Below are positions 26,305-45,156 of a DNA stretch of 64,000 nucleotides, in pieces (the stretch's first letter is position 1; every line of letters starts with the position of its first letter). Below the pieces are notes generated by a model. The model worked only from the letters and a program-made list of their open reading frames with translations, was not told the origin of the DNA and searched no databases. The DNA is taken from the NCBI GenBank assembly GCA_964493305.1, contig CAZBLW010000001.1, positions 473,513-537,512 on the forward strand, read 5' to 3'. Both the position numbers and the translations under genes were made by a program. The stretch comes from an uncultured Gammaproteobacteria bacterium. Lineage in GTDB: Bacteria; Patescibacteriota; Patescibacteriia; S139-126.

Positions 26305-27704
26305 TTTAGTTTTTTAACTATTTTATTAAACTGTTCTCCACGATCAAATTCATTTTTGAAATTAGCAAAACTGGCAAAACCTGGCGAGAGTAAAATTGTA
26401 TCTCCGGTTTTTGCTAATTTTACAGCCGTTGCGACAAGATCAGACATGTTTTGAAAATTGGTAAAGAGTTTTGATTTTTTATAGTGGTTTTTTTCTAAAG
26501 CCAATAGTAACTCGTCGGAACCTTCACCAGCAAATAATAAACAGTATTTTACTTTGGATTTAATCTCCTTAGCTAGTAGCTCTACCGGTAATTTTTTTGA
26601 ACTACCACCGGCCAATAAAATGATATTTTTTTTAATCGTTTGTAAAGCTGCTATGGTAGCAACTGGTGCCGTGGCTGTAGTATCATTGATAAAAGTAATT
26701 CCTCTTATTTTTCTAACTGTTTCCAATCGACTACTAAAACCATGATACCGACTAACCACCTGGCTTATAATTTTGTTGGGAACTTGTAGAATTTTTGCTG
26801 CTAGTATAGCAGCTAAAGTATTTGCTAAATTATGTTCGCCGGCTAATTTAATTTTATTTTTAGCTATAATAAATTCATCACTGCCATTGTTTCTAAAATA
26901 AATACCTCCTTGTTTTATATAAACACCGCGATTAACTCTAAATTTTAGACTGTACCAATACTTTTTGCTGATTATTTTTTTTGCTAATTGCCTACTAACT
27001 GGATCATTTTGATTTAGAATAGCAATATCATTTTTTGTTTGATACTTAAAAATAAAAAATTTGGCAGCGATATATTCGTTGAAATTTTTATAACGATTTA
27101 AATGTTCCGGAGTTATGTTGGTCAATAAAGATATTTGCGGAGATTTTTTTATTATTTTCAATCCTTCTAACTGCCAGGAAGATAATTCTAAAATTACTTT
27201 GGTCCGCGGTTTGATTTGATCAATAAAACCAAACATGGTTTTAATTTTAATATTACCGCCTACCAAAGTATCAGGATAAAACTTACTACAAATCTCCCCC
27301 AGTAAATGAGTGGTTGTTGATTTTCCTTTGCTACCAGTAATTGCTAAAATTGGTTGATTGACTAATAAAAAAAATAAAGTAGCCTCATTGTAGATAAGAA
27401 TACCTTTGGCTTTAGCTGCTTGCAAAAAAAAATGATTATTGGGAACACCTGGATTTTGGATTATTAAATCAATTTTAGATAATAAACCAAGCTTAGGTTC
27501 TTGCCCTAAAATAATATTTTTTGAAGGAATAATTAACTGTTTTATGCTGGGTTTTAGTACTGCGGCTGTTTTTTTATCAGTTACTGTTACTTTGGCTCCT
27601 TGCCGTTGTAGCCAATTTGCCAGAGTTAAACCTCCGCCATGCACTCCTAAACCAAAAACTAAAACCCGTTTATTTTTTAACCAAGCGGCTGAATTTACCG
27701 TCAT
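26301..27704 (-). CDS. murD: UDP-N-acetylmuramoylalanine--D-glutamate ligase
   Basis: VLVFGLGVHGGGLTLANWL and ITGSKGKSTTTHL identify a Mur ligase in the dcw context. Confidence 0.8.
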   Translation of the reverse strand: MTVNSAAWLKNKRVLVFGLGVHGGGLTLANWLQRQGAKVTVTDKKTAAVLKPSIKQLIIPSKNIILGQEPKLGLLSKIDLIIQNPGVPNNHFFLQAAKAKGILIYNEATLFFLLVNQPILAITGSKGKSTTTHLLGEICSKFYPDTLVGGNIKIKTMFGFIDQIKPRTKVILELSSWQLEGLKIIKKSPQISLLTNITPEHLNRYKNFNEYIAAKFFIFKYQTKNDIAILNQNDPVSRQLAKKIISKKYWYSLKFRVNRGVYIKQGGIYFRNNGSDEFIIAKNKIKLAGEHNLANTLAAILAAKILQVPNKIISQVVSRYHGFSSRLETVRKIRGITFINDTTATAPVATIAALQTIKKNIILLAGGSSKKLPVELLAKEIKSKVKYCLLFAGEGSDELLLALEKNHYKKSKLFTNFQNMSDLVATAVKLAKTGDTILLSPGFASFANFKNEFDRGEQFNKIVKKLK

Positions 27705-27975
27705 ATTTTATGTATATAAAATCATACCATTGTAATCCAAAAAATATACCCGCCAATAAAGATGCGAGCCAAACTAAAACTGAAAACATAGTATGAATTG
27801 CTAACCAAATTTCGTAAGTAAAACCTAGGGAAAATTTATTAAAATCTTGTGATAAAAAATAAAGCACGGGAAATTCTGCTAAGGCATGAAAAATTATTCC
27901 CAATAAAAACCAAAAAATTATAGCCGCTAACAAATAAATTGTTTTAAACCAAAGTTGTTGATAATATTTTTTCAT
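27670..27975 (-). CDS. Small two/three-TM membrane protein, hypothetical
   Basis: A hydrophobic ORF between mraY and murD. It overlaps the murD start by 35 nt. Confidence 0.4.
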   Translation of the reverse strand: MKKYYQQLWFKTIYLLAAIIFWFLLGIIFHALAEFPVLYFLSQDFNKFSLGFTYEIWLAIHTMFSVLVWLASLLAGIFFGLQWYDFIYIKYDGKFSRLVKK

Positions 27976-27985
27976 AAATTAAAAT

Positions 27986-29032
27986 TTAGTATAGATAATC
28001 AACTAAAAAAACAATTAGACCAATAACCGCCATCACTGCTGATATAATCCAAAAACGCATTACTATTTTAGGTTCAGGCCAGCCGATAGCTTCAAAATGA
28101 TGATGTACTGGTGCTGACAAAAAAACTTTTTTACCAAATATTTTTTTAGCGATAATTTGTACAATTACGGATAAAGTTTCTAAAACAAATAAAAAACCTA
28201 TAATTGGTAAAAGTAAGACACTATTGGTCAGCATGGCCACAATCCCCAATGTAACACCTAAAGACATGGCGCCAGTATCTCCCATAAAAAATCTGGCAGG
28301 ATTTATATTAAACCAAAGAAAAGCCAACAAAGCTCCAACAATCGCTCCACAAAAGGCTGCTAAATTATACTTACCTTGAACAAAGGCAATAGCACCAAAA
28401 GCGGAAAAAGCCGCCAATAAACCACCACCGGCTAAACCATCAAGACCATCTGTTTCATTAACTGAAAAAGCGGTAGCTACAATAATAAAAATAAAAATAG
28501 GTATATACCAAATACCAATACTAAAATTTCCCAAAAAAGGAACATGGATAATATCCCAATCTAACTTGTAATAAAACCAATAAGCACCAGCAATGGCAAT
28601 TAAACTATAAGCCAATAATCGATGTTTTATTCTTAAGCCTCCACCATCTGAACCTAAGCCTTTAATATTTAAAAAATCGTCAAATAAACCTATGATCGCA
28701 CTAAAAATAAGAGCCCCCAATGGTAACCAGGTTTCAGATCTGGTCAAAAAATTTAGATCACCCAATGATTGCCATTCAGTTAAATGCCAAAAAGCATTGA
28801 TTAACAAAGCAAGGGTCAAAACCGTCAACCATACCAAAATACCACCCATTGTTGGTGTGCCTGATTTTATTTGGTGAAGTTTGGACATGATCGGAGCTGT
28901 TACTTCCGTACGAATACGTTTACCTAATTTATATTTATATAAAAAATGCGTTAATAAAGGTGTAAAAGCAATCGCCATTATAAAAGCTAAAACGGTTATA
29001 AAAAAAATTTTAATAATAGCGATCTCAATCAT
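27986..29032 (-). CDS. mraY: Phospho-N-acetylmuramoyl-pentapeptide transferase
   Basis: DDFLNIKG, MGDTGAMSLG and PVHHHFE are MraY signature blocks. Confidence 0.9.
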   Translation of the reverse strand: MIEIAIIKIFFITVLAFIMAIAFTPLLTHFLYKYKLGKRIRTEVTAPIMSKLHQIKSGTPTMGGILVWLTVLTLALLINAFWHLTEWQSLGDLNFLTRSETWLPLGALIFSAIIGLFDDFLNIKGLGSDGGGLRIKHRLLAYSLIAIAGAYWFYYKLDWDIIHVPFLGNFSIGIWYIPIFIFIIVATAFSVNETDGLDGLAGGGLLAAFSAFGAIAFVQGKYNLAAFCGAIVGALLAFLWFNINPARFFMGDTGAMSLGVTLGIVAMLTNSVLLLPIIGFLFVLETLSVIVQIIAKKIFGKKVFLSAPVHHHFEAIGWPEPKIVMRFWIISAVMAVIGLIVFLVDYLY

Positions 29033-29040
29033 AAAAAACC

Positions 29041-29445
29041 TTAATTAAAATAAAAAATAATAACTAAAAATAATCCGAAAGTTAAAAAAATATTTAAAAC
29101 TGATGAGTACACTGCCAACCAATAAAATAGTTTTTTATTATGTTTATACCAAAACAGTCCCAAACCAAAATTCACAAACGACCAAATCAAACCCAGTAAT
29201 GGATACAAATACAAATAATAATTAGGTCCGTACCAATCTATACCATAATATATATTGTAATGTAGCGGAACAATTGCTTGATCTACTTTAATCCTGAAAT
29301 ATAACCAAAGAAAAATTAAAACTAAAAACAGTAAATTAACAATAAAAAAAATCGCTTTTTTCCAAGCCAAATTACGATTAGTAAATATATTAATCATAAC
29401 TATATCATCCAATAAAATATGACTTAAGTCAATACAAAACCACAT
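29041..29445 (-). CDS. Polytopic membrane protein, hypothetical (first gene of the dcw transcription unit here)
   Basis: Four predicted TM segments. It is coupled to mraY. Confidence 0.4.
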   Translation of the reverse strand: MWFCIDLSHILLDDIVMINIFTNRNLAWKKAIFFIVNLLFLVLIFLWLYFRIKVDQAIVPLHYNIYYGIDWYGPNYYLYLYPLLGLIWSFVNFGLGLFWYKHNKKLFYWLAVYSSVLNIFLTFGLFLVIIFYFN

Positions 29446-29465
29446 TTTGGTAATTTTTGAAAATA

Positions 29466-29474
29466 TGTTATAAT
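29466..29474 (+). promoter_or_regulatory. Putative extended -10 promoter (TGtTATAAT) upstream of pilB
   Basis: TGTTATAAT lies at 29466-29474, 17 nt before the pilB ATG, in the only intergenic gap (divergent from the dcw operon). Confidence 0.3.
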
Positions 29475-29491
29475 TTATTCAAAATAAAACC

Positions 29492-31225
29492 ATGCTTAAC
29501 TCAACTGTTATTAAAAAAGTTCTTTTGAGTCAAAAATTGATTGACCAAAAAACTTTTGAAAAATTGCAACAACAATCAGAAAAAGAGGGCACAAACCTAC
29601 AAGAACTCGTACTCGATCAAAAAATTATTTCCGAAGAAGCGCTTTATGAAGCTGCCGCCCAGCAGCTTAATCTTTTTTTTATAAACTTAAAAGGTAAGGT
29701 AATTAGAAAAGATATTTTATTTTTAATTCCCGAACCAATTGCCCAGACCCACAATGTTATTGCTTTTGATTTAGAAGATGAGCTATTAAAAATTGCCACT
29801 ATTGATCCCAGTGATTTACAAACCTTGGAATTCATCAAGAAAAAAACTGGATTAAAACTAGAAGTTTATCTTACCGTCCCCAATTCTATAAAAGAAGCAC
29901 TAAATCAGTATCATAAGGGTCTAAAAGCTGAATTTAATGATATAACCAGTATTTCGGAAAACGGTGAAGCTACTTCCACTAGTCAAGATTTGAAAGAACT
30001 AGCAGCTGATCTGCCAGTGGTAAGAATTGTTGATACTCTTTTAGAGTACGCTATCTTCGAAGGAGCCTCTGATATTCATATCGAACCAATGGAAAAAGAG
30101 TTATTGGTCAGATATCGCATTGACGGTATTTTAAGAGATGTAATGACTCTTCCCAAAAACGCTCAAGCCGGAGTCACCGCCAGAATAAAAATTTTAGCCA
30201 ACCTAAAACTTGACGAACATCGTCAGCCCCAAGATGGTCGTTTTAAAATTTCTACAGATCAATATAAAGTAGCATTTAGAGTTTCAATTATCCCGGTTTT
30301 TGACGGAGAAAAAATTGTTATGCGTTTACTGAATGAATCGAGTCAAATTCTCACACTTGAACAATTGGGCTTTCACAAAAGATCTTATGAAATTGTTAAA
30401 ACCAATGTTGCCAAACCTCACGGTATGATTCTAGTAACTGGCCCGACTGGTAGTGGTAAAACTACTACTTTGTATACAATTTTAAATATTCTAAATACAC
30501 CAAAAGTCAATATCGCTACCGTCGAAGACCCGGTTGAATATCGTATGCCCAGAATTAATCAATCTCAAATCAACACCAAAGTCGGTTTTACTTTTGCTTC
30601 AGGATTACGATCGCTGTTACGGCAAGATCCGGATATAATCATGGTTGGTGAAATAAGAGATATTGAAACTGCTGAAATTGCTATTCATGCTGCCATGACC
30701 GGCCATCTAGTTTTGTCTACTTTACATACCAACGACGCCGTTTCTACCCTACCCCGACTCCAAGATATGGGTATTGCCAGTTTTTTAATTGCTACTACTA
30801 CCAACTTGATTGTCGCTCAACGTTTAGTCAGAAAAATTTGTACCAATTGTATTTATTCTTACAATCTAAATAAAGAAAACATCAAGGAACTAGAACAGCG
30901 CTATAATATCGATTCGCTACTAAAAACATTAGTGGAAGAAAAGGTTATTGATTCGGTTGATATTCCTCTTACCGAACTATTGTTCTATCGTGGCAAGGGC
31001 TGTAAGCAGTGCAATAACAATGGTTATAAAGGCCGTATTGGAATTTATGAAACCTTAGAAATTACTCCTGAAGTTCAAAAACTAATTATGCAAAAAGCAA
31101 CTGCCAGAGAATTATTTGAAGCTGCCAAAAAACAAAACATGTTAACCTTATTTGAGGATGGCATTATCAAAGCCAAAAATGGTATTACTACCATTGAAGA
31201 AATTATTAGAGTAACCAAAGAATAA
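29492..31225 (+). CDS. pilB: Type IV pilus assembly ATPase (GspE/PilB family)
   Basis: Walker A GPTGSGKTTTLY, the Asp and His boxes and a tetracysteine motif are present, with an N-terminal GSPII_E N domain. Confidence 0.9.
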   Translation: MLNSTVIKKVLLSQKLIDQKTFEKLQQQSEKEGTNLQELVLDQKIISEEALYEAAAQQLNLFFINLKGKVIRKDILFLIPEPIAQTHNVIAFDLEDELLKIATIDPSDLQTLEFIKKKTGLKLEVYLTVPNSIKEALNQYHKGLKAEFNDITSISENGEATSTSQDLKELAADLPVVRIVDTLLEYAIFEGASDIHIEPMEKELLVRYRIDGILRDVMTLPKNAQAGVTARIKILANLKLDEHRQPQDGRFKISTDQYKVAFRVSIIPVFDGEKIVMRLLNESSQILTLEQLGFHKRSYEIVKTNVAKPHGMILVTGPTGSGKTTTLYTILNILNTPKVNIATVEDPVEYRMPRINQSQINTKVGFTFASGLRSLLRQDPDIIMVGEIRDIETAEIAIHAAMTGHLVLSTLHTNDAVSTLPRLQDMGIASFLIATTTNLIVAQRLVRKICTNCIYSYNLNKENIKELEQRYNIDSLLKTLVEEKVIDSVDIPLTELLFYRGKGCKQCNNNGYKGRIGIYETLEITPEVQKLIMQKATARELFEAAKKQNMLTLFEDGIIKAKNGITTIEEIIRVTKE

Positions 31226-31226
31226 T

Positions 31227-32459
31227 ATGCCAGAATTTGCATACACAGCCCGTACCAAAGAGGGCGAAACAAAAAAAGGCATTATTGAAAAAGCTTCTAG
31301 AGAAGAATTAGAGACATATTTATCTAGTCGCGATTTAATATTGACTCAAGCCAAGGAAATAAGTAATTCTACCAGTTTTAAAGATTGGATCAACAAAATC
31401 AACAATTACTTGATTGATATCTCCGGAGTCCCCAACTCAGAAAAAATATTTTTTACGCAAAATTTATCGGTCATGATAAAAGCCGGTATCTCTTTATCAC
31501 AAGCGCTGCATACTCTAGCCACCCAAACTACCAATAAAAAATTACAAAAAATACTACTTGATGTCCAAACCAATGTAGAAAAAGGACGATCACTGGCTGA
31601 TAGCTTACAACCTTATGTAAAAATTTTTGGTGAACTGTATATTAATATGCTGAAAACCGGTGAAACTGCCGGTCAACTTGAACAAGTGTTAAAACAACTA
31701 ACTTTACAAATGAAAAAAGACCACCACTTGGTATCCAAGGTTAGAGGTGCCATGGTTTATCCAGCCATTGTGGTTACAGCTATGATCGTAATTATGATTA
31801 TAATGTTTATTTTTGTTATTCCACAGATTACCGGAATTTTCAAAGAAGTAGAGGCTGAATTACCACTCCCCACTAAAATATTAATTGCCGTATCCGACTT
31901 TATTGTCAACAATGGGCTGTTGGTTGCTTTTTTAGCAATCACCGCCGTCACAACATTTATAAAATTTATTCGTAGTAAAAAAGGTCGGGTTATCTGGCAT
32001 AAATTTACCCTGAAACTACCAATCATCAGTCCCATTTTAAAAAAAGTTAACTTAGCAAGATTTTCTCGCACCACAAGTTCGTTACTTAAAACTGACATAC
32101 CAATTACAGAAAATTTTTCCATAACCGGAAAAGTCCTGGGCAACAGCTCTTATAAAATTTTATTGAGTCAAGCTTCCGAAGAATTAAAAAAAGGTGTAAG
32201 TATTCACACCACTTTGGAAAAACGACCTGATCTTTTTCCTCCAATTGTTATTCAAATGATAGCTGTTGGCGAAGAAACTGGATCTCTTGATAATATCTTG
32301 GAACAATTAGCCGTTTTCTATGAGGAAGAGGTTGATCAAACTATGAATAATTTGACTGCTACTTTAGAACCAATTTTGATGTTATTACTTGGTCTAGGTG
32401 TAGGCAGTATTGCTGTGGCTGTTATCATGCCTATGTATTCTCTAACACAACAATTTTAA
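31227..32459 (+). CDS. pilC: Type IV pilus platform protein (GspF/PilC family)
   Basis: Two GspF repeats with three TM segments. It is coupled to pilB. Confidence 0.85.
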   Translation: MPEFAYTARTKEGETKKGIIEKASREELETYLSSRDLILTQAKEISNSTSFKDWINKINNYLIDISGVPNSEKIFFTQNLSVMIKAGISLSQALHTLATQTTNKKLQKILLDVQTNVEKGRSLADSLQPYVKIFGELYINMLKTGETAGQLEQVLKQLTLQMKKDHHLVSKVRGAMVYPAIVVTAMIVIMIIMFIFVIPQITGIFKEVEAELPLPTKILIAVSDFIVNNGLLVAFLAITAVTTFIKFIRSKKGRVIWHKFTLKLPIISPILKKVNLARFSRTTSSLLKTDIPITENFSITGKVLGNSSYKILLSQASEELKKGVSIHTTLEKRPDLFPPIVIQMIAVGEETGSLDNILEQLAVFYEEEVDQTMNNLTATLEPILMLLLGLGVGSIAVAVIMPMYSLTQQF

Positions 32460-35284
32460 TGACTATAAAAAATAATAAAGCTTTCACTTTATTAGAAATA
32501 ATTATCAGTTTAGGCTTGATGATTATGGCGGTTTTGGCAATTTCTAGACTATATGCCGCTTATCTGCAACTTACTGCTAATGAAAAATTTAAAATAACTG
32601 CTTCGGCTTTAGCTAATCAAAAAATTGAAACAATCAGAAACCTACCTTATCACAAAATTGGTACACTGGGAGGGATCCCAGCGGGTTCAATCTTGCCATC
32701 AGAAACAGTTACTAGAAATGGTTACGACTATACGGTTCAGACCGAAATTTTATATATTGATGATCCCTTTGATGGCACTTACAGTCCTGGTCAAGTTAGC
32801 AACCCTTATAACATCAATAACCCTGAGGTAATTTTTTACTGGAATGCAAACAAAACCACCAATAACCAACCACCCCAAAAAGGATCAGGTGTGATTACTA
32901 CCCCCACTTCTTTAACTACAGCCAATGGGGTTATTGACAAAGGAGCTTTTTATAACCCTGGCAATCAAGCTGACTATACAAGATTTGATGTCACTAACAA
33001 TATTGATTTGGCCAGAGGTAGAATAGGTTTTTGGTATCAAGCAACCAACAAAAATATTAGTAGTGATCGATATTTATTCTATTTAGGTGGCTGTACTGGT
33101 GAATTTTCAGTTAAAAGAAAAAATTCCAATAAACTAGAGTTACGTTATGGTCAAACTGTTGGTATGACACCAGCTGAGTATTTATCAACCAACCCTATTC
33201 AATGGGAGTTGGGCCGTTGGTATTTTATTGAAATTGTCTGGAACTCTGCTGAGAATGAAATACTATTATTACTAGATAACGAAGAAATTGGTTTTAGAAC
33301 CGGTGATACTTTTAATCCCCCAACTAATTGTTCTTCTGCTTTTATTGGTAACTCTAGTATTTATGGTACACAAAACGCTGATGGTATTATTGATGAAATT
33401 TATATTCTTAACAATCCCTTTCCAACCAATGTACCACAGGATTTTTTAAATACTGATTATAAAAGAGTTAAAGTAACTGTCTCTTGGCAAACTCCATTTG
33501 GCTTACAAAGTATTTCTATGTTAACGGATGTTGCTCCGGTTGGTATTGAATCAACTGATGGGGGCGGAACTTTAATTATCAATGTTTTTAACAGTGAAGG
33601 TCAACCAGTGCCACAAGCCTCGGTTAATATCACAAACCAAGAAATTATACCCATTGTTGATTTACAATTAACTACAGACGATAACGGACGTCTTTTGATT
33701 CCCGGAGCACCTGCTAGTGATAAATACAATATATCAGTCACCAAAACAAACTTTAGCACTGATGCTACTTATGAACCAACTATAGATTTCCCTACTCCGT
33801 TTAGACCTCAAGTAAGTGTAATTGCTTCGCGTAGTACAGAAGTTAGCTTTGCTATAGATTTATTTAGTACTTTAACTATTAAATCTGTCTCACGTGATCT
33901 GCCAGGTAACTGGGAAATGAGTAACGGTCCCACCTCAACACCTTATTATGAAGGTAAAATAATTGCCGGTAGCAATGTTTTTTTCAATGTGTGGCAAGAT
34001 TTTCGTGATGATTTAAACAACCCAAAAACTTTCGGTCAATCCTATACTTTTACAGGTGACAAAATATGGAGTAATGATATAGCTATTGCCCAAGCTCCAC
34101 AACAAAGTAAAGCTGATCTAACAATAGATGAAAACGACAATTTTTATACTGTTTGGCAAAGTAATTATTTAGGTCAGTATGACATTTTTATCAACAAACA
34201 TAATAGTTCTGGTATTGATTTATGGAGTGGTCAAAAAAAAGCTACCCAAAACAACCTCTCGCAAAAAATTGACCCTCAACTTACTTACGCAAGTGGCACG
34301 ATTTTTGTTGTTTGGCAAGATAACCGAGACGATACAGGTGATATTTATCTAAATATATTGGATCAAAACGGTAATTACCAAATAGTATCTGATAGTAAAA
34401 TAAACACCGATCTTGGCAATGCGGTTCAATCTCAGCCAAAAATTGTAGCCGATACAACCAATAACGCTTTGGTTGCTTGGCTAGACAATCGTAATGGTTT
34501 AAAAGATATTTATCTTACTAAAATTGATCAAACTGGAAATAAATTGTGGTCTAACGAATTAAAAGTTAATTCAGAAATACCCAGTATAGATCATGACAAT
34601 TTTTCTTTAACCACTGACCAAAATAATAATATTTATATTACTTGGTCTGATGATCGGACTGGACAAGCAAATATTTATTGGCAAAAAATCGATACCGATG
34701 GAAATAAATTATTTTTTATTGATCAAGAACTAATAACTCAAGCAAACTTAGCCCAACAAACAAATCCAAAAATTGTTTGTGACCTAAATAATGATCTATT
34801 TATTGTTTGGCAAGATAATCGCGGTGGCCAACAAGATATCTTTACCCATAAATTGGATTCTGACGGCAACACTATTTGGCCGCAAGAACAACAAATCAAT
34901 TTAAATAGTGAGGGCGACCAATATTTAGTAGATATTACTATTTATGAAGGTACAAAATTGGCATTATCATGGACTGATTGGCACACAGATTATCCCTCAG
35001 TCTGGAATGCAACTTTAGCTGACCAACTAACAGAAAATATAATTCCAAACTATGATTTTATATTATCTGGAACAAAATTAATTTATCAAGAACCTGACCA
35101 ATTAAAATATCTAGCTAACTTAAAAACAAATTCACAAGGCGAATTAACAATCACAAACTTAGAATGGGATTCTTATCAAATTACCAATAATGATACATTT
35201 TATAATCTATTGATGTCAGAACCCATTTTACCATTTTTAATTCCGGCTGGTACTAGTACGATGATAAAATTAATTGTCAATTGA
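32459..35284 (+). CDS. Giant type IV pilin-like protein (class III signal peptide) with lectin-like jelly-roll, beta-sandwich and propeller-like repeat modules; candidate adhesin
   Basis: The N-terminus MTIKNNKAFTLLEIIISLGLMIMAV has Glu at +5 and a hydrophobic helix. Downstream are W/Y/F-rich jelly-roll-like blocks, a CarbopepD_reg-like segment and at least five ~45-aa repeats (..vWqDnR.G..DIY..KiD..GNklW). Confidence 0.7.
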   Translation: MTIKNNKAFTLLEIIISLGLMIMAVLAISRLYAAYLQLTANEKFKITASALANQKIETIRNLPYHKIGTLGGIPAGSILPSETVTRNGYDYTVQTEILYIDDPFDGTYSPGQVSNPYNINNPEVIFYWNANKTTNNQPPQKGSGVITTPTSLTTANGVIDKGAFYNPGNQADYTRFDVTNNIDLARGRIGFWYQATNKNISSDRYLFYLGGCTGEFSVKRKNSNKLELRYGQTVGMTPAEYLSTNPIQWELGRWYFIEIVWNSAENEILLLLDNEEIGFRTGDTFNPPTNCSSAFIGNSSIYGTQNADGIIDEIYILNNPFPTNVPQDFLNTDYKRVKVTVSWQTPFGLQSISMLTDVAPVGIESTDGGGTLIINVFNSEGQPVPQASVNITNQEIIPIVDLQLTTDDNGRLLIPGAPASDKYNISVTKTNFSTDATYEPTIDFPTPFRPQVSVIASRSTEVSFAIDLFSTLTIKSVSRDLPGNWEMSNGPTSTPYYEGKIIAGSNVFFNVWQDFRDDLNNPKTFGQSYTFTGDKIWSNDIAIAQAPQQSKADLTIDENDNFYTVWQSNYLGQYDIFINKHNSSGIDLWSGQKKATQNNLSQKIDPQLTYASGTIFVVWQDNRDDTGDIYLNILDQNGNYQIVSDSKINTDLGNAVQSQPKIVADTTNNALVAWLDNRNGLKDIYLTKIDQTGNKLWSNELKVNSEIPSIDHDNFSLTTDQNNNIYITWSDDRTGQANIYWQKIDTDGNKLFFIDQELITQANLAQQTNPKIVCDLNNDLFIVWQDNRGGQQDIFTHKLDSDGNTIWPQEQQINLNSEGDQYLVDITIYEGTKLALSWTDWHTDYPSVWNATLADQLTENIIPNYDFILSGTKLIYQEPDQLKYLANLKTNSQGELTITNLEWDSYQITNNDTFYNLLMSEPILPFLIPAGTSTMIKLIVN

Positions 35285-35907
35285 TGAAAAAAATAATTAT
35301 TTACAACCAAACTGGTTTTTCTTTACTTGAATTATCTATTACCTTAGGTATTTTTATAATTATTGTTTTAGCTTGGAATAATTTTACTTTACAAAATTTA
35401 CGAAGTACTGCTTTTGGTCAAGAACAACTGGAAGCTATCAGACAAGCACAAAAAGGTATTGATGTTATGGCTAAAGAATTAAGAGAACTAACTACGGCTG
35501 AAAACGGCGCTTATCCTTTGGAATTGGCCGGTGATTTTGAAATTATATTTTATTCGGATATAGATCAAGATGTTTATGCCGAAAGAGTACGTTATTTTTT
35601 GGAAGATGATATTTTAAAAAAAGGCGTAACTGAACCAACCGGAGAGCCTTTAACTTATAATCCTACAAACGAAATAGTTTCTACTATATCAGAACATGTG
35701 CGAAATGATACTTTACCGATTTTTACATATTTTAATGGTGACTATCCTTATGACACCATCAATAATCCTTTACCCGCACCTGCTCGTTTGATTGAAACAA
35801 AACTTATTAATGTTTTTTTACGAATTAACATTGATCCTCAACGAGCACCAGATGATTTTGATTTACATACTGATGTTCAATTACGCAACTTAAAAACAAA
35901 TCTTTAG
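35281..35907 (+). CDS. Minor pilin/pseudopilin (prepilin-type N-terminal cleavage/methylation domain)
   Basis: MMKKIIIYNQTG|FSLLELSITLGIFIIIV is a canonical G-FxLxE motif. Confidence 0.7.
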   Translation: MMKKIIIYNQTGFSLLELSITLGIFIIIVLAWNNFTLQNLRSTAFGQEQLEAIRQAQKGIDVMAKELRELTTAENGAYPLELAGDFEIIFYSDIDQDVYAERVRYFLEDDILKKGVTEPTGEPLTYNPTNEIVSTISEHVRNDTLPIFTYFNGDYPYDTINNPLPAPARLIETKLINVFLRINIDPQRAPDDFDLHTDVQLRNLKTNL

Positions 35908-35908
35908 C

Positions 35909-37303
35909 ATGAAAAAAAAATTTTTAAAAAATATAACAAAAAATTTACAAGGCAACGTGCTTGTTTTGATTGTAGTTTTTACAGGTATTTTTTTAGTAAT
36001 TATCACTGGTCTAATGGGTGTAGTTTTTTATCAAAAAAAATTAAATGATCAATACGTTGCTCAAATACAAGCTCTTCACATCGCTGAGGCTGGTATTAAT
36101 TATTATCGTTGGCACTTAGCCCATGCCCCAGATGATTTTTCTAATAATACGGGTCAACCTGGTCCTTATATTCATGATTATATTGATCCAACAAGTGGTA
36201 GTATAGGTAAATTTAGTTTGAGTATTGATTCACCTGACATTGGCTCAACCATAGTCACTATCCGTTCCACAGGCTGGACTAATGATTATCCAAATTTAAA
36301 AAGAACAATTGATGTTAAATATGGCAAACAGTCTTTGGCTCGTTACTCTTATCTAACTAATTCAGATATTTGGTTAGGCCAAAATGAAGCTGTGTCAGGT
36401 GAAATGCATGCTAATGGTGGTGTAAGAATGGATGGAACCAATGACTCATTAGTTACCTCAGCTAAAGAAACTTATATTTGTACGACTTCTCATGGTTGTT
36501 CTAATGAAGAAAAACCAGGTATTTGGGGTAATGGCCCAAACAATGATCTCTGGGATTTCCCAGTACCAGAAATTGATTTCAATACTTTGACATTGGATTT
36601 GGCAAACATGAAAACAGCCGCCCAAAACAATGGGCATTATTATCAACCAAGAAACTACGGCTATTTAGTTTCTTTTCGCAATAACGGTACTTATGATATT
36701 TACAGCGTTACCAGACTTTATCCGGCTATACAACAAATTAATGATAACTTTACAGCTTACGAATACAAAGCCGAACAAATCGAACGAACTGTCTTTATCG
36801 GTAATTATAATTTACCAACTAATGGTTTAATATTTATTGAAGATGATGTTTGGGTACAAGGAACCTTAAATGGTAAAGTCACCTTAGTTTCGGCTAGTTT
36901 TCCTGATACCCCACAAACCAATACTAGTATTTTTATAAACGATAACCTTAGATATTTAGCTCGTGATGGCAACCACAAATTAGGAATAATTGCCCAAAAA
37001 AACGTGCAGGTTCCTAGACACGCTCCCACTAATCTATACATTGACGCTGTTTTACTTGCACAAAAAGGACGAGTTTATCGTGGCTTATATGGTAGTCGTT
37101 TGATAAAAAATTATATAGAGGTTTATGGAGGAATTATTACCAACAAAATTTGGACTTGGAGTTGGGTATCAGGTACTAATATAATAGACGGATATACTAA
37201 TACCAATAGTATTTTTGACAGTAAACTAATTTTTTCGCCACCACCATATTTCCCTACTAGTGGCGATTACTCATTTATCACTTGGGAAGAATTATCAAAT
37301 TAG
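35909..37303 (+). CDS. PilX-like minor pilin (PilX_N-type N-terminus lacking Glu+5) with large C-terminal domain
   Basis: An N-terminal hydrophobic helix is followed by QALHIAEAGINYYRW, as in PilX_N. Length is 464 aa. Confidence 0.5.
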   Translation: MKKKFLKNITKNLQGNVLVLIVVFTGIFLVIITGLMGVVFYQKKLNDQYVAQIQALHIAEAGINYYRWHLAHAPDDFSNNTGQPGPYIHDYIDPTSGSIGKFSLSIDSPDIGSTIVTIRSTGWTNDYPNLKRTIDVKYGKQSLARYSYLTNSDIWLGQNEAVSGEMHANGGVRMDGTNDSLVTSAKETYICTTSHGCSNEEKPGIWGNGPNNDLWDFPVPEIDFNTLTLDLANMKTAAQNNGHYYQPRNYGYLVSFRNNGTYDIYSVTRLYPAIQQINDNFTAYEYKAEQIERTVFIGNYNLPTNGLIFIEDDVWVQGTLNGKVTLVSASFPDTPQTNTSIFINDNLRYLARDGNHKLGIIAQKNVQVPRHAPTNLYIDAVLLAQKGRVYRGLYGSRLIKNYIEVYGGIITNKIWTWSWVSGTNIIDGYTNTNSIFDSKLIFSPPPYFPTSGDYSFITWEELSN

Positions 37304-37316
37304 GTATAATGTAAGT

Positions 37317-38363
37317 ATGATTTTAACTAGTAAAAAAATTTCTTATTTTGGACTGGATATAAGTGATTTTTCTTTTAAGTTGGCTGGGGTTATAAGTAGT
37401 AAAAATACTTTTGAATTAATCAATTATAATACTGCCAATATACCGCCTGGTTATTTTGATAATGGCAAAATAATTAAGCATCAAGAGTGTGCTAATTTAA
37501 TTAGAGAACTCATAGGTTCTGCTCAAGGACCTAAAATTAAAACAAAATTTGCTCATGTCTGTTTACCTGAAAAACATACCTTTATTAAAATACTTCATTT
37601 ACCACCCATGTCAGAAGCTGAAATTCCTTCAGCTATTGATTGGGCCGCAGAACATCACTTACCTTTCTCATTAGATGAAATTTATTTTGATTATCATGTT
37701 TTCAAAGTAAAAAATCCTGATCATTCTATACCAGTTATAATTGGCGCTGCCCCCAAAGAAATTGTTGATGATTATACCAAAATGATAAAACTGGCCGATC
37801 TTGCTCCTTTGTCACTAGAAATTGAAGCACTGGCAATCGCTAGATCAATATACCCCTGGGAAAATAGCATGGATAAAACTGAGGTGATAATTGATTTAGG
37901 TGCCAGTCGTAGTAGTTTAATTATCTGTGCCAACAATGCCGTCGAGTTTAGTTTAAGTTTACCAATAAGCGGTAACAAAATAACGGAAATTATAAGTCAA
38001 ACTTTGCAGCTATCACCTAAACAAGCCGAGACTGCCAAAATTATTTGTGGATTTGATCCCCATAAATGCCAAGGTGGTATTAAATTGATAATGGATCAAG
38101 AATTAGACAAATTGGCCAAAGAAATTAAGGATGGTCTTAAGTATTATCAAACCAACATCACTAAATCAAATAATATTGAAAAAATTATTTTAGTTGGCGG
38201 GGGTGCTAATATGATTGAATTGAGCAGTGTCCTCACAGAAAAAGTAGGCATCCCAACTGCAGTCGCTGATTTATCTGAACACATCAAAATAAATCACCAT
38301 CTAAATATAAAAAACCAAACTTTACTATCTTTAGCTACCGCGATTGGCTTAGCAATAAAATAA
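37317..38363 (+). CDS. pilM: Type IV pilus assembly protein PilM (actin-like ATPase fold)
   Basis: YFGLDISDFSFKLAGV is an N-terminal actin-like fold block. It lies directly before pilN-like and pilO-like genes. The start was moved to the ATG at 37317. Confidence 0.7.
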   Translation: MILTSKKISYFGLDISDFSFKLAGVISSKNTFELINYNTANIPPGYFDNGKIIKHQECANLIRELIGSAQGPKIKTKFAHVCLPEKHTFIKILHLPPMSEAEIPSAIDWAAEHHLPFSLDEIYFDYHVFKVKNPDHSIPVIIGAAPKEIVDDYTKMIKLADLAPLSLEIEALAIARSIYPWENSMDKTEVIIDLGASRSSLIICANNAVEFSLSLPISGNKITEIISQTLQLSPKQAETAKIICGFDPHKCQGGIKLIMDQELDKLAKEIKDGLKYYQTNITKSNNIEKIILVGGGANMIELSSVLTEKVGIPTAVADLSEHIKINHHLNIKNQTLLSLATAIGLAIK

Positions 38364-38365
38364 AT

Positions 38366-38905
38366 ATGATTGAATTAAATTTACTTTCAAATACAGAAAA
38401 AACCAACTCCAATCTTCTTTGGAAATATATTATAATTAAAACTGTCATCTCAATTATCTTGACCTTGTCTTTTGTAATAAGCGGTGTTTTATTTGGTGCT
38501 AAACTTTTATTATTGCAAAAATTTACCGAGGTACAAGAACAAGCCGCCGCTATCAATATTACTCATCAAAAAATTAACGAGCGAGTAAATATGTATAATA
38601 AAGAGATAAAAACATTGGACGGAATTCAAAATGAATTCACTGATTGGCCTTTATTCCTATACAATTTGAATAACCAAATTACTGGTGGGGTTAATTTTAG
38701 CAAAATTGAAATCAACATGTCTGAAAAAAAAGTAAGTTTTACTGGTATTAGTAACACCAGAGAAGATCTCTTGAACTTTAAACAAAGTATGGAAGATTGT
38801 GGTATCGTTACTGACATTACCCTACCATTAAATACCTTATTGAAAAAACAAAATATTGATTTTTCCATATCAGGAACAATAAAAGAACTATCGTGTTATG
38901 ATTAA
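38366..38905 (+). CDS. pilN: PilN-like bitopic pilus alignment protein
   Basis: The N-terminal IELNLL motif, one TM segment and a periplasmic coiled coil are present. Confidence 0.6.
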   Translation: MIELNLLSNTEKTNSNLLWKYIIIKTVISIILTLSFVISGVLFGAKLLLLQKFTEVQEQAAAINITHQKINERVNMYNKEIKTLDGIQNEFTDWPLFLYNLNNQITGGVNFSKIEINMSEKKVSFTGISNTREDLLNFKQSMEDCGIVTDITLPLNTLLKKQNIDFSISGTIKELSCYD

Positions 38906-39434
38906 TTTAAAACCTAAAAATAAACAAGAAAATTCTACCACTCTCAATGTAACCATTGCTTTGTTGGTAATTTTACTAGTTAGCACAGTGATTTTTACTG
39001 GTAAAACAATTTTAAATATACTGGAGCTAAATCAACAAATCTTATCCAAACGAACTGAGTTAGAAACCAAATATCAACAAGGTATGTCTCTAAAAAAGAC
39101 CAATTTGGAATTGGAACAGTCAAAGGAAAGATTGGAGAAAATAAACAATATAATTATCAGTACTGATAATACTTTAGATTTTATTAGTGACATAGAAAAA
39201 ACCGCCGCTGCCCACAACATTGAACACCAAATTAAACTACCTGATTTTGAAAAACCCAAAGTTCCATCGCCAATTACAATGCAGTTAACACTTCATGGTA
39301 GTTATTTAAATACTCTTCGCTTTATTGAAAATCTACAACACAAACCCTATTATATCAACATTCACTCGTTGTCTTTCTCTCAACAAACCAATGAAGTGAC
39401 AACAAATATTGAAGCTAATATGTACTGGCAATAA
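38898..39434 (+). CDS. pilO: PilO-like bitopic pilus alignment protein
   Basis: One TM segment, a coiled coil and a position after pilN. Confidence 0.45.
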   Translation: MINLKPKNKQENSTTLNVTIALLVILLVSTVIFTGKTILNILELNQQILSKRTELETKYQQGMSLKKTNLELEQSKERLEKINNIIISTDNTLDFISDIEKTAAAHNIEHQIKLPDFEKPKVPSPITMQLTLHGSYLNTLRFIENLQHKPYYINIHSLSFSQQTNEVTTNIEANMYWQ

Positions 39435-39786
39435 TATGAATATCAAAAAAACTTTACAAAATACCAATAAATTTTTACTTAAACATTTAAAATTACTAAC
39501 AATATTTTTTTCTTTTTTAATTGTATTAGGAATTGGTATCTTTCTTTATTTTAATTTTTACCAAACTATTATTTCCGCCAAACAAATAATAGTATTACAA
39601 TCTGATATTGCCCCGGCTACAATCAATATTAAACTGCTTGACCAAGTCGAGGCTAAATACCAAGAAAAAATAAAACCCACCAACTATAAGTGGGAAAGAT
39701 TTACTAATATTTTTGCCACTAATCAAACAAATAGCTCTCCTAACAACTTTACACCGTCCAACATCAACCCTCAAATTTCCTTTTAA
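39409..39786 (+). CDS. Small bitopic membrane protein at end of pilus operon (PilP-like position), hypothetical
   Basis: One TM segment and a short periplasmic tail. It overlaps pilO by 26 nt. Confidence 0.35.
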   Translation: MKLICTGNNMNIKKTLQNTNKFLLKHLKLLTIFFSFLIVLGIGIFLYFNFYQTIISAKQIIVLQSDIAPATINIKLLDQVEAKYQEKIKPTNYKWERFTNIFATNQTNSSPNNFTPSNINPQISF

Positions 39787-40049
39787 TCAAGCATAATTAC
39801 TTCGGAAATTTCCGCAAACTGGCTCTGTAACTGTTTTTCCACTCCCATTTTAAGAGTAATTGCAGATAAGGGGCAACCAACACAAGCACCCATCAATCTA
39901 ACTTTGACCTGACCAGTATTCTGTTGAAAAGAAACGAACTCAATATCGCCACCATCAAGCTGAATAAAAGGCTTGATTTTGGTATTTATGAATTTATCTA
40001 TTTTAGTAGCTGTTAATTTATTGTTTTTTTGAATTTTTTTGGCTGGCAT
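39783..40049 (-). CDS. NifU-like Fe-S cluster scaffold domain protein (Nfu)
   Basis: LDGGDIEFVSF...MGACVGCPLS carries the CxxC motif of the Nfu C-terminal domain. Confidence 0.75.
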   Translation of the reverse strand: MPAKKIQKNNKLTATKIDKFINTKIKPFIQLDGGDIEFVSFQQNTGQVKVRLMGACVGCPLSAITLKMGVEKQLQSQFAEISEVIMLD

Positions 40050-40077
40050 GATATTACTTTATCAGTTACTAATTTTA

Positions 40078-40105
40078 TTGACAATACCAAATTTTATGTT
40101 ATGAT
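40078..40105 (+). promoter_or_regulatory. Sigma70-like promoter of rpmA (TTGACA-N16-TATGAT)
   Basis: TTGACA at 40078-40083 and TATGAT at 40100-40105 are separated by 16 nt, about 40 nt upstream of the rpmA ATG. Confidence 0.4.
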
Positions 40106-40144
40106 ACTTATACTATCTACTAGAATTATTAATTTTAACTATTT

Positions 40145-40423
40145 ATGGCTCATAAAAAAGCCGGCGGATCAACTAGTTTAGGCCGGGACAGTGTTAGTAA
40201 GCGCTTAGGCGTTAAAATGTTTGCTGGACAAATTGCCAAACCAGGTAATGTGTTAGTAAGACAACGTGGTACTAAAATTAGGGCTGGACAAAACGTTATG
40301 CGCAGTGGCGATGATACTTTAATTGCTACCAAAGCGGGTATTGTGTCTTTTCAAACCAAAAAAATTACTCGTTTCAATGGCCAGAAAAAACTTAGTAAAT
40401 ACGTTCACGTCAAAGAAAAATAA
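40145..40423 (+). CDS. rpmA: 50S ribosomal protein L27
   Basis: [24 protein letters not shown] is a near-universal L27 N-terminus. Confidence 0.95.
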
Positions 40424-40432
40424 ATCATTCTG

Positions 40433-40465
40433 AAAACACCCTTTCTTTAAGAAAGGGTGTTTTTT
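40433..40465. terminator. Bidirectional rho-independent terminator between rpmA and pyrG
   Basis: A perfect 10-bp stem, ACACCCTTTC (40436-40445) / GAAAGGGTGT (40451-40460), has a 5-nt loop. It is followed by TTTTT on the plus strand and preceded by AAAA (a U-tract on the minus strand). Confidence 0.8.
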
Positions 40466-42110: not shown

Positions 42111-42112
42111 AT

Positions 42113-42556
42113 CTAAGGTTGTTTCAAAATGTTTATTTTTATAGCCAATGAACTCTGATCAGAAAATAAAATTTTAACCCAATGTTCTCCAATATTCTTT
42201 AAATGACAGTCGGCAACTTTAATATCATCCCAAAAAAAATTCAATTTTTTTAATTCATTTAATACATCAACTGATTTAACTTGGGCAAATAAAACACCGC
42301 TTTCATTGGCCGGTCTGGTAATATTAATCTGCTGTCTGTCAAGATTTTTGATAAATTCTTCTTTTTTTTGTAAATATTGTTGTTGTTTTTTTTGTTTCTG
42401 TTTAACTTGTAATTTGAAATCAGTAATACTTTTTTCATCTGCTACTTTGGCAATTTTTTGTGGAATTAAATAATTTCTAGCATAGCCTTCACTTACCTCT
42501 TTCAATTCACCTGTCCGTCCCAATGACTTATGGTTTTTTAGTAAAATTACTCTCAT
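42113..42556 (-). CDS. rplI: 50S ribosomal protein L9
   Basis: MRVILLKN...LGRTGELKEVSEGYARNYLIP is an L9 N-domain. Confidence 0.85.
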   Translation of the reverse strand: MRVILLKNHKSLGRTGELKEVSEGYARNYLIPQKIAKVADEKSITDFKLQVKQKQKKQQQYLQKKEEFIKNLDRQQINITRPANESGVLFAQVKSVDVLNELKKLNFFWDDIKVADCHLKNIGEHWVKILFSDQSSLAIKINILKQP

Positions 42557-42560
42557 GTAA

Positions 42561-43787: not shown

Positions 43788-43815
43788 ATATTTGTAATTA
43801 TATCATATTTAATTA

Positions 43816-45084: not shown

Positions 45085-45156
45085 AAACTTATATTTATTG
45101 TAAATTATCTTTAACTTTTATTCAAGCTAAGAAAAAGATGCTATAATAAATCCAAT

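What the first reader, a model, noticed from the sequence alone, without database searches (positions are those of the whole stretch)
32459..35284. 941-aa type IV pilin-like protein carrying lectin-like and propeller-like modules: candidate pilus-borne host adhesin
Seen in sequence:
- The ORF starts inside the pilC stop (TAATG) and opens MTIKNNKA|FTLLEIIISLGLMIMAVLAI. That is a short basic leader, then F-T-L-L-E with Glu at +5 and a ~20-aa hydrophobic helix, the hallmark of a prepilin (class III) signal. The -1 residue is Ala rather than the near-invariant Gly.
- About 100 aa of pilin-like beta region follows.
- Residues ~185-320 (nt ~33011-33416) show a W/Y/F-rich pattern (IGFWYQATN, RYLFYLGG, WYFIEIVWNS, DGIIDEIYILN) like concanavalin-A/LamG jelly rolls.
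- Residues ~375-440 resemble a CarbopepD_reg/transthyretin-like beta-sandwich (TLIINVFNSEGQPVPQASVNITNQ...DDNGRLLIPGAPASDKYNISVTKTNFS).
- Residues ~555-800 (nt ~34121-34856) contain at least five tandem ~45-aa repeats with consensus P.I..D.nNn.yvvWqDnR.G..DIY..KiD..GNklW, plausibly beta-propeller blades.

Established knowledge: minor pilins with fused binding domains sit at pilus tips, and episymbiotic Patescibacteria (Saccharibacteria) need type IV pili to attach to host cells.

Inference: this is a tip-located modular adhesin or host-recognition pilin. It could be a lineage-specific specificity determinant.
Basis: partly seen in the sequence, partly recalled or inferred. Interest (0 to 1): 0.75.

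Follow-up and report, generated by a model that had tools for sequence, protein, structure and literature searches.

The report
Five-module type IV minor pilin, recombining
This gene, in the pilus operon of an ultrasmall Patescibacteria genome, encodes a very large pilus subunit carrying a lectin-like domain and a seven-bladed propeller, so it is a good but unproven candidate for the part of the pilus that recognises the host cell, and it has recently been swapped between related species.

Summary
The high-confidence AlphaFold2 model (pLDDT 89) shows five modules:
- a prepilin leader plus a 50-residue alpha1 helix and a four-strand pilin head;
- a CarboxypepD_reg-like sandwich;

The gene lies between pilB-pilC and a 207-aa pilin, a Glu5-less PilX_N-like 464-aa protein and pilMNO. 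This order recurs across Patescibacteria. Relatives carry 0, 1 or 2 LamG copies at the same loop, and many lack the propeller.

New here: the window's gene is a mosaic. Nucleotides 32250-33150 are about 97% identical to one genome and 33110-37300 are 98-99.5% identical to another. Flanks are only 70-82% identical. The second tract ends where the minor-pilin cassette ends.

Best reading: a tip-complex modular minor pilin that presents glycan- or host-binding modules. Tip location, processing and ligand are inferred, not shown. It is a new member of the known "modular pilin" kind.

The parts
32459..35284 (+). Whole ORF, 941 aa: a modular type IV minor pilin
   Evidence: Full-length homologues of 938-942 aa at 49-95% identity. 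AF2 mean pLDDT 89.2.
32459..32638 (+). Class III (prepilin) signal: 8-aa leader MTIKNNKA, cleavage predicted after Ala8, then FTLLE with Glu5, and alpha1 helix aa 11-60
   Evidence: Sequence. N_methyl PF07963 E 0.015 in the query, and 21 of 26 family members at E<=0.01, best 3e-8. Helix H11-60. The -1 residue is Gly in 36 of 38 orthologues, Ala in 1 and Ser in 1.
32639..32779 (+). Pilin head, first half (alpha-beta loop, strands b1 aa 81-86 and b2 aa 89-100), ending in the invariant DDPFDG motif
   Evidence: This is the most conserved part of the protein (57-99% identity across relatives).
32780..33439 (+). LamG/ConA-like jelly roll (aa 108-327 with linkers; folded core about aa 114-323), inserted in the b2-b3 loop of the pilin head. 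Cys212 and Cys291 are conserved.
33440..33544 (+). Pilin head, second half (strands b3 aa 334-345 and b4 aa 348-358), with motif D.LNTDYKRVKVTVSW
   Evidence: It joins directly to DDPFDG in relatives that lack the insert.
33545..33892 (+). First beta-sandwich, CarboxypepD_reg-like (aa 363-478)
   Evidence: Pfam PF13620 aa 376-450, E 5e-7, found in 25 of 26 relatives. Occupancy 1.0 across the 85-sequence family alignment.
33893..35032 (+). Seven-bladed beta-propeller of SBBP/BNR-like repeats (aa 479-858), with W.D.R...DIY...D..GN..W in each blade
35033..35284 (+). C-terminal prealbumin/SpaA-like sandwich (aa 859-941) with the family-wide NLEWDSY motif, plus the stop codon
   Evidence: Pfam SpaA aa 879-925, E 1.4e-3, found in 12 of 26 relatives. 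E902, W903, D904 and Y906 are nearly invariant in the 85-sequence alignment. Occupancy 0.98.
29492..32459 (+). pilB (29492-31225) and pilC (31227-32459): extension ATPase and platform protein, same operon
   Evidence: Pfam T2SSE E 5e-132 and T2SSF E 2e-55. Promoter-like site at 29447-29474.
35284..35907 (+). 207-aa minor pilin (leader MKKIIIYNQTG|FSLLE). Its ATG overlaps the stop of the big pilin (TGATG).
   Evidence: Weak GspJ-like N-terminus. Syntenic in all loci examined.
35909..37303 (+). 464-aa conserved partner with a non-canonical, Glu5-less hydrophobic N-terminus (PilX_N-like). Candidate cap of the tip complex.
   Evidence: 1639 homologues, the top 120 at 47% identity or more, a few annotated PilX N-terminal or PF14341. 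Syntenic.
37317..39786 (+). pilM, pilN, pilO and a small 116-125-aa membrane protein (alignment subcomplex)
   Evidence: Pfam PilM_2 E 1e-42, PilN, PilO. Gene calls on identical contigs.
32250..33150 (.). Recombination tract 1: about 97% nt identity to locus L001, against 70-73% in the flanks. It covers the 3' end of pilC and aa 1 to about 230 of the pilin.
33110..37300 (.). Recombination tract 2: 98-99.5% nt identity to locus L081, against 75-80% in the flanks. It runs from mid-LamG to the end of the 464-aa gene, with two divergent patches of about 100-150 nt (35440-35550 and 36500-36650).
   Evidence: The window sequence across both junctions is 100% identical in three independent assemblies.

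Best explanation
The gene encodes a modular minor type IV pilin of a Patescibacteria (Paceibacteria-like) type IVa-like pilus.

Shown by sequence and structure prediction. It has a class III signal (8-aa basic leader, Ala-1, Glu5) and a 50-residue alpha1 helix. It has a small four-strand pilin head that is interrupted between b2 and b3 by a LamG/ConA-like jelly roll. Downstream lie a CarboxypepD_reg-like sandwich, a seven-bladed SBBP-like propeller and a conserved prealbumin-like sandwich. It is translationally coupled to pilC upstream and to a second pilin downstream.

Inferred. The prepilin peptidase cleaves after Ala8. The alpha1 helix docks with the 207-aa pilin and the Glu5-less 464-aa PilX_N-like protein to form the priming complex. 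That complex ends up at the pilus tip, because about 90 kDa of extra modules cannot fit in the filament shaft. From there the jelly roll and propeller bind surface glycans or other ligands of the host cell, and the sandwiches act as spacers.

Conserved versus variable parts. The pilin head, both sandwiches and the 464-aa partner are conserved, which fits assembly roles. LamG copy number, presence of the propeller and the sequences of both vary and are exchanged by recombination, which fits specificity roles.
For: - ORF and signal sequence.
- Family-level N_methyl matches in 21 of 26 members, best E 3e-8.
- Pilin module hits ComGE, PilV, GspI and GspJ N-termini, best E 3e-8.
- AF2 pLDDT 89.2 and 88.7 with the topology H11-60, b1-b2, jelly roll, b3-b4, sandwich, seven blades, sandwich.
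- Conserved order pilB-pilC-this gene-pilin-464 aa-pilMNO in L001-L036.
- 0, 1 or 2 LamG copies at one loop.
- Distal modules are the least conserved and the pilin head the most conserved.
- Most divergent gene of the operon against L002, L003 and L014 (against L001 pilM/N/O are lower).
- Two recombination tracts. The larger one ends at the end of the minor-pilin cassette. They are not an assembly artefact.
- Literature. The peptidase cleaves after Gly or Ala, and tip complexes are capped by a Glu5-less subunit (PMC10191384). Modular pilins PilB and PilC are tip adhesins (PMC8179133, PMC9934059). In TM7x the propeller-bearing PilX2 is needed for efficient host binding, and its authors superposed its propeller on the lectin CV39L (6GXS-B), an entry my searches also return for this propeller (PMC11623550).
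Against: - No experiment bears on this protein.
- The query's own N_methyl score (15.3 bits) is below Pfam's cut-off, and Ala at -1 is rare in the family (1 of 38 orthologues).
- No prepilin peptidase or major pilin gene lies in the 64-kb window.
- The strongest propeller matches include enzymes (CylK, GH145, PL42, sialidases), so binding rather than catalysis is not established.
- I could not inspect the model coordinates, so the packing of b1-b4 on alpha1 and the position of the conserved W/D/R residues are unverified.
- In TM7x the apparent counterpart locus (T4P-1) is essential and linked to twitching motility rather than to initial host binding.
Confidence: 0.6

Rival explanations
1. A pilus-borne enzyme. 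The LamG module acts as a carbohydrate-binding module and the propeller is a glycoside hydrolase or lyase (or another catalyst). It would cut host cell-wall polysaccharide at the point of contact, in the way that sialidases combine a CBM40 lectin domain with a catalytic propeller.
Against: Sialidases have six blades and this protein has seven. The sialidase alignments have rmsd about 31 A. The query has no Pfam or NCBIfam match to any catalytic family. The residues conserved across the family recur in every blade (W.D.R, DIY, G..W), which is the pattern of structural or multivalent-lectin repeats and not of a single active site. Lectins (PLL, CV39L) and non-enzymes (YncE, integrins, WD40) score as well as the enzymes.
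Confidence: 0.15
2. A core priming minor pilin of a pilus used for DNA uptake or motility. The extra domains would serve assembly, envelope spanning or stability, and would not recognise the host.
For: The pilin module's best family matches are the competence pilin ComGE, then PilV and GspI. The gene sits in the main machinery operon and its position is conserved across Patescibacteria. In TM7x the locus-one pilins (pilA1, pilV1, pilW1) are essential and that pilus drives twitching. The two sandwiches and the 464-aa partner are highly conserved.
Against: A purely structural role does not explain several results. LamG and the propeller are present in only a subset of orthologues. They are the fastest-evolving parts. 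They are the parts moved by recent recombination. Lectin-type folds are typical ligand-binding modules. A priming role and an adhesin role are not mutually exclusive.
Confidence: 0.15
3. Not a pilus subunit at all. The N-terminal helix would be an uncleaved signal anchor, and the protein a membrane-tethered surface protein that happens to be encoded in the pilus operon.
For: Ala replaces the usual Gly at -1. The query's N_methyl match is sub-threshold. No peptidase gene is seen in the window.
Against: Gly is at -1 in 36 of 38 orthologues with otherwise the same N-terminus. Ala is an accepted cleavage residue (PMC10191384). Glu5 is present and alpha1 is 50 residues long. The gene is translationally coupled to pilC and to another pilin.
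Confidence: 0.07

Closest known systems
Streptococcus sanguinis PilC (and PilB): modular minor type IV pilins of the PilABC tip complex (PMC9934059, PMC8179133)
   Different: In PilC the lectin module is grafted at the C-terminus through a linker. Here it is inserted inside the pilin sheet (b2-b3 loop) and occurs in 0, 1 or 2 copies. This protein adds three further modules: two sandwiches and a propeller. No sequence homology was detected outside the N-terminal helix.
Nanosynbacter lyticus TM7x PilX2 and PilX1 (Saccharibacteria; PMC11623550)
   Different: PilX1 and PilX2 lack a PilD-type signal, whereas this protein has one. The PilX2 propeller is made of RCC1 repeats and this one of SBBP/BNR-like repeats. 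Here the jelly roll and the propeller sit in one polypeptide. By its N-terminus and gene position, the 464-aa neighbour looks more like a PilX-type protein than this gene does.
InterPro-catalogued modular pilins N_methyl+PF13620 and N_methyl+PF13385, many from candidate phyla (PMC8179133)
   Same: The same Pfam building blocks occur on a pilin, and several representative proteins come from Patescibacteria lineages. The roughly 595-aa relatives found here are of this type.
   Different: Those entries are catalogue items without structural or genomic analysis. The combination of all five modules, the insertion topology and the recombination tracts are not described there, as far as my searches show.
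PilY1 / Neisseria PilC tip adhesins of diderm T4aP
   Same: All are large, modular, propeller-bearing proteins presented with the minor-pilin tip complex and used for adhesion.
   Different: PilY1 is not a pilin and has no class III signal. Its propeller belongs to a different family (IPR008707), for which no match was found here.

Membership tests
Type IV pilin (class III signal peptide protein) | Short, positively charged leader ending in Gly (or Ala), followed by a stretch of about 20 hydrophobic residues with Glu at +5 | tested here: met
   MTIKNNKA|FTLLEIIISLGLMIMAVLAI. Ala at -1 is accepted by prepilin peptidases according to PMC10191384. Orthologues: Gly 36, Ala 1, Ser 1.
Type IV pilin (class III signal peptide protein) | Match to the N-terminal methylation motif model (Pfam PF07963 / TIGR02532) | tested here: inconclusive
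   Query 15.3 bits, E 0.015, below the 21.2-bit cut-off. 21 of 26 aligned relatives match at E<=0.01, best 3e-8.
Type IV pilin (class III signal peptide protein) | Long N-terminal alpha1 helix (about 50 residues) followed by an antiparallel beta-sheet head | tested here: met
   AF2 gives H11-60, then E81-86, E89-100, E334-345 and E348-358 at pLDDT 81-96.
Type IV pilin (class III signal peptide protein) | Encoded with type IV filament machinery | tested here: met
   pilB, pilC, pilM, pilN and pilO are in the same operon. Synteny is conserved in L001-L036.
Type IV pilin (class III signal peptide protein) | Cleavage and N-methylation by the prepilin peptidase, and incorporation into filaments | not testable with these tools
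   This needs biochemistry. No peptidase gene lies within the window.
Modular pilin (sensu Raynaud et al. 2021) | A pilin module plus at least one domain that is not specific to T4P biology | tested here: met
   LamG/ConA-like, CarboxypepD_reg, seven-bladed propeller, SpaA-like sandwich.
Concanavalin A-like lectin/glucanase superfamily (Laminin_G_3, PF13385) | Jelly-roll beta-sandwich fold and a family HMM match | tested here: met
SBBP-type seven-bladed beta-propeller | Seven blades built from SBBP-like repeats | tested here: met
PilY1 / Neisseria PilC tip adhesin | Non-pilin protein with the PilY1-type C-terminal propeller domain | tested here: not met
   No Pfam match to the PilC/PilY1 family at E<=1. 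The protein has a pilin N-terminus.
Sialidase (GH33) with CBM40 | Six-bladed propeller with Asp-boxes and a catalytic Arg triad, Tyr and Glu | tested here: not met
   Seven blades. No BNR or sialidase HMM hit in the query. Foldseek alignments have rmsd about 31 A. Catalytic residues were not examined in 3D.
PilV / GspI / ComGE minor (pseudo)pilin equivalogs | Score above the curated NCBIfam cut-off | tested here: not met
   ComGE 21.8 bits (cut-off 49) and PilV 13.8 (cut-off 52.2). Matches are confined to the alpha1 region.

The most novel reading that the evidence does not exclude
In Paceibacteria-like episymbionts the three-gene minor-pilin cassette (this pilin, the 207-aa pilin and the 464-aa cap) may be a laterally exchangeable host-range module. 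It would be swapped between species by homologous recombination, much as phages swap receptor-binding proteins. Host specificity would be set by the number of LamG copies inserted in the pilin head and by the propeller.
Probability: 0.3. Interest if true: 0.7.

Novelty: new member of a known kind. Interest (0 to 1): 0.45.

Why it matters
Only Saccharibacteria among the Patescibacteria have experimental data on how the cell finds and binds its host. This protein is a concrete, well-folded candidate for the much larger Paceibacteria/Parcubacteria branch, and it offers separable modules (LamG aa 114-323, propeller aa 479-858) for glycan-array or host-binding tests. Three observations point to these modules as the evolving part of the pilus. 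The lectin module is inserted inside the pilin fold. Its copy number varies. A 4.2-kb near-identical tract covers the minor-pilin cassette up to its 3' end, between genomes that are otherwise about 75-80% identical. Together these make host-range evolution in uncultivated episymbionts testable by comparative genomics.

Tried and rejected
- Direct sequence searches against PDB, with the protein and with a profile of the pilin module, returned only N-terminal helix matches to pilins at E 0.3-0.5. They were uninformative for the head domain.
- Pfam on the query alone does not detect the LamG domain or the propeller. Detection needed homologue-level scans and structure prediction.
- I considered that the mosaic identity pattern was an assembly chimera. 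I rejected this because window 27701-42386 is 100% identical in three independent assemblies from three runs, spanning both junctions. In addition, the shared tracts are 97-99.5% identical rather than 100% and contain divergent micro-patches.
- I considered that the tract reflects strong conservation. I rejected this because the same region is the least conserved against L001-L003, at 56-75%.
- I considered recent DNA-level tandem duplication or low complexity for the repeats. I rejected this because TRF finds nothing and the blades are 12-42% identical.
- I tried to draw a functional call from the propeller fold. All seven-bladed propellers score alike, so none is justified.
- A search of the propeller alone in the word-indexed database gave only 11 distant BNR/SBBP proteins. 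The exhaustive search showed the repeat family is in fact very large.
- dN/dS was not attempted, because synonymous sites are saturated at 60-75% nt identity.


Full report
**1. The observation**

The ORF at 32459..35284 (+) is present and encodes 941 aa. Its ATG shares a base with the pilC stop, TAATG. Its own TGA overlaps the ATG of the next gene, TGATG, so the three genes are translationally coupled.

The N-terminus is MTIKNNKA|FTLLEIIISLGLMIMAVLAI. This is an 8-aa leader with two Lys, Ala at -1 and Glu at +5. The window has 32.6% G+C and contains only one other class III signal ORF, the neighbouring 207-aa gene. TRF finds no DNA tandem repeat in the gene.

**2. Anatomy**

AlphaFold2 on an 85-sequence alignment gave mean pLDDT 89.2. 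A separate model of aa 1-365 gave 88.7 with the same topology. The order of elements is:
- helix aa 11-60;
- strands aa 81-86 and 89-100;
- a low-confidence linker, aa 105-113;
- a beta-sandwich, aa 124-317;
- a linker, aa 324-329;
- strands aa 334-345 and 348-358;
- a linker, aa 363-366;
- a sandwich, aa 370-478;
- seven sets of blade strands, aa 483-853;
- a sandwich, aa 866-940.

The family alignment explains this layout. The invariant motif DDPFDG (aa 101-106) is joined directly to D.LNTDYKRVKVTVSW (aa 328-343) in relatives of 676-758 aa. The query and its 938-942-aa orthologues have about 220 extra residues there. A 1144-1185-aa group has about 440, which is two tandem copies. Among 38 orthologues recovered from genomes, 31 have no insert, 4 have one and 3 have two. 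The jelly roll is therefore an insertion in the b2-b3 loop of the pilin head, not a C-terminal fusion.

**3. Identity of the modules**

*Pilin module.* The query's N_methyl score is sub-threshold (E 0.015). However, 21 of 26 relatives match at E<=0.01, best 3e-8. Isolated pilin modules of insert-less relatives hit ComGE (12 of 15, best 3e-8), PilV (9), GspJ (5) and GspI (4). All are below the curated cut-offs and confined to alpha1.

Two Cys (212 and 291) are conserved in the family (GC.G and P..C). This suggests a disulfide, which is an inference.

*First sandwich.* CarboxypepD_reg, aa 376-450, E 5e-7, present in 25 of 26 relatives.

*Last sandwich.* Weak SpaA/prealbumin-like match at aa 879-925. 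It carries a nearly invariant NLEWDSY motif.

**4. What is universal and what is optional**

In the 85-sequence alignment the pilin head and both sandwiches are present in 98-100% of members. The LamG columns are occupied in 23% and the propeller columns in 45%. The large group of roughly 595-aa relatives, which includes Saccharibacteria-labelled genomes, matches only the pilin and sandwich regions (11-26% of the query), and its precomputed Pfam hits are N_methyl, CarboxypepD_reg and Ig-like domains.

Per-module identity to close orthologues is highest in the pilin head (57-99%) and lowest in LamG and the propeller.

The propeller repeat itself is widespread. There are 15,564 cluster representatives at E<=1e-3 and 1,882 at E<=1e-30. 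Many are proteins of 1,000-5,500 aa that match only the repeat region. Nine that I sampled carry domains such as Peptidase_C13, FlgD_ig or a Por secretion tail.

**5. Context**

The order mraY< orf134< pilB> pilC> this gene> ~205-aa pilin> ~465-500-aa protein> pilM> pilN> pilO> recurs, in whole or in the part each contig covers, across loci L001-L036, with one inverted exception (L011). These loci carry Paceibacter, Parcubacteria, Falkowbacteria, Buchananbacteria, Komeilibacteria and Doudnabacteria labels. Several records titled "Gammaproteobacteria" are evidently mislabelled MAGs.

The 464-aa partner lacks the G-F-x-x-x-E motif and Glu5. It belongs to a well-conserved family of 1639 hits, with the top 120 at 47% identity or more. 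A few members are annotated as PilX N-terminal domain proteins.

According to the T4F review, core minor pilins form a tip-located priming complex capped by a Glu5-less subunit, and the peptidase cleaves after Gly or Ala (PMC10191384). By analogy (an inference), this pilin, the 207-aa pilin and the 464-aa protein form such a complex.

**6. Recombination (new)**

*Against L081.* L081 is an NCBI MAG contig that carries P0001. Nucleotide identity is 80% upstream (29680-33100) and 74.5% downstream (37350-45250). From about 33110 to 37300 it is 98-99.5%, with 11 mismatches in 33150-35300. Two patches of about 100-150 nt within that tract are only about 70% identical.

The tract starts inside the LamG domain, at about aa 220-230. 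It ends at the stop of the 464-aa gene, just before pilM.

*Against L001.* The flanks are 70-73% identical, but 32250-33150 is about 97% identical. That stretch covers the end of pilC and aa 1 to about 230. The two tracts meet at about 33110-33150.

*Controls.* The same region is the least conserved part of the operon against L001-L003, at 56-75%, so conservation cannot explain the pattern. The window sequence 27701-42386 is reproduced at 100% identity in three independent assemblies from three sequencing runs. P0001 is encoded on two contigs, the NCBI MAG contig and a Logan assembly of run SRR14117730, although I do not know whether the two come from different samples. An assembly chimera is therefore unlikely.

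The minor-pilin cassette has thus been exchanged recently between genomes that differ by 20-30% elsewhere.

**7. Mechanism**

Most likely (confidence 0.6) this is a processed minor pilin that enters the priming or tip complex through alpha1. It would display a lectin-like jelly roll next to the pilin head, and a propeller on a sandwich stalk, to bind host-surface ligands.

Three lines support this reading:
- the characterised modular pilins PilB and PilC of S. sanguinis;
- TM7x PilX2, whose propeller is required for efficient host binding, and which its authors aligned with CV39L, a lectin that also scores well for this propeller;
- the variability and exchange of precisely these modules.

The rivals are a pilus-borne glycan-cleaving enzyme (0.15), a mainly structural or priming subunit of a motility or DNA-uptake pilus (0.15) and an uncleaved membrane anchor (0.07).

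**8. Novelty**

Modular pilins are an established kind. A published survey counts 264 architectures, including N_methyl+PF13620 and N_methyl+PF13385, with examples from candidate phyla. Lectin-like and propeller-bearing minor pilins have been studied in Saccharibacteria.

This protein is a new member of that kind. Three features have not, as far as my searches show, been described before:
- the lectin module is inserted within the pilin sheet and varies in copy number;
- the chain has five modules;
- there are recombination tracts, one of which ends at the 3' end of the cassette.

Noticed in passing
window 16219-17952 (-): A 577-aa SecD homologue has a PPIC-type rotamase domain (aa 174-256, E 6e-24) between the SecD_1st and SecDF_P1_head domains. 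This looks like a PrsA/PpiC-like foldase inserted in the extracytoplasmic P1 domain of SecD.
   Followed up: no
window 12640-14760 (-): A class II aminoacyl-tRNA synthetase (D/K/N type) is fused to a C-terminal HD domain at aa 541-617.
   Followed up: no
window 35440-35550 and 36500-36650: Two patches of about 100-150 nt are only about 70% identical to L081, inside a tract that is otherwise 98-99.5% identical. They fall in the 207-aa pilin (about aa 53-90) and in the 464-aa protein (about aa 197-247). This suggests further small gene-conversion events.
   Followed up: partly
window 35909-37303 (+): The 464-aa protein has a Glu5-less hydrophobic N-terminus. It belongs to a large, well-conserved Patescibacteria family (1639 hits) with almost no Pfam annotation beyond an occasional PilX_N match. 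No fold was determined here.
   Followed up: partly
window 56041-58266 (-): A 741-aa ORF has no Pfam match at E<=1e-5.
   Followed up: no
P0023 and P0025 (homologues; alignment A1 columns about 850-1990): Two relatives carry large extra insertions inside the propeller region. P0023 has a Cys-rich segment of about 330 aa, and P0025 has a segment of about 650 aa. The propeller loops therefore also accept grafted modules.
   Followed up: no
proteins P0220-P0364: The same propeller repeat occurs in thousands of other proteins. Some have up to about 5,500 aa, and some have Peptidase_C13, FlgD_ig or Por secretion tail domains. The repeat family appears poorly covered by Pfam.
   Followed up: partly
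loci L001, L002, L012, L016 and others: Many MAG records titled 'uncultured Gammaproteobacteria' or 'Pseudomonadales' carry this Patescibacteria-type operon, with synteny identical to named Paceibacter and Parcubacteria genomes. They are probably taxonomically mislabelled.
   Followed up: no
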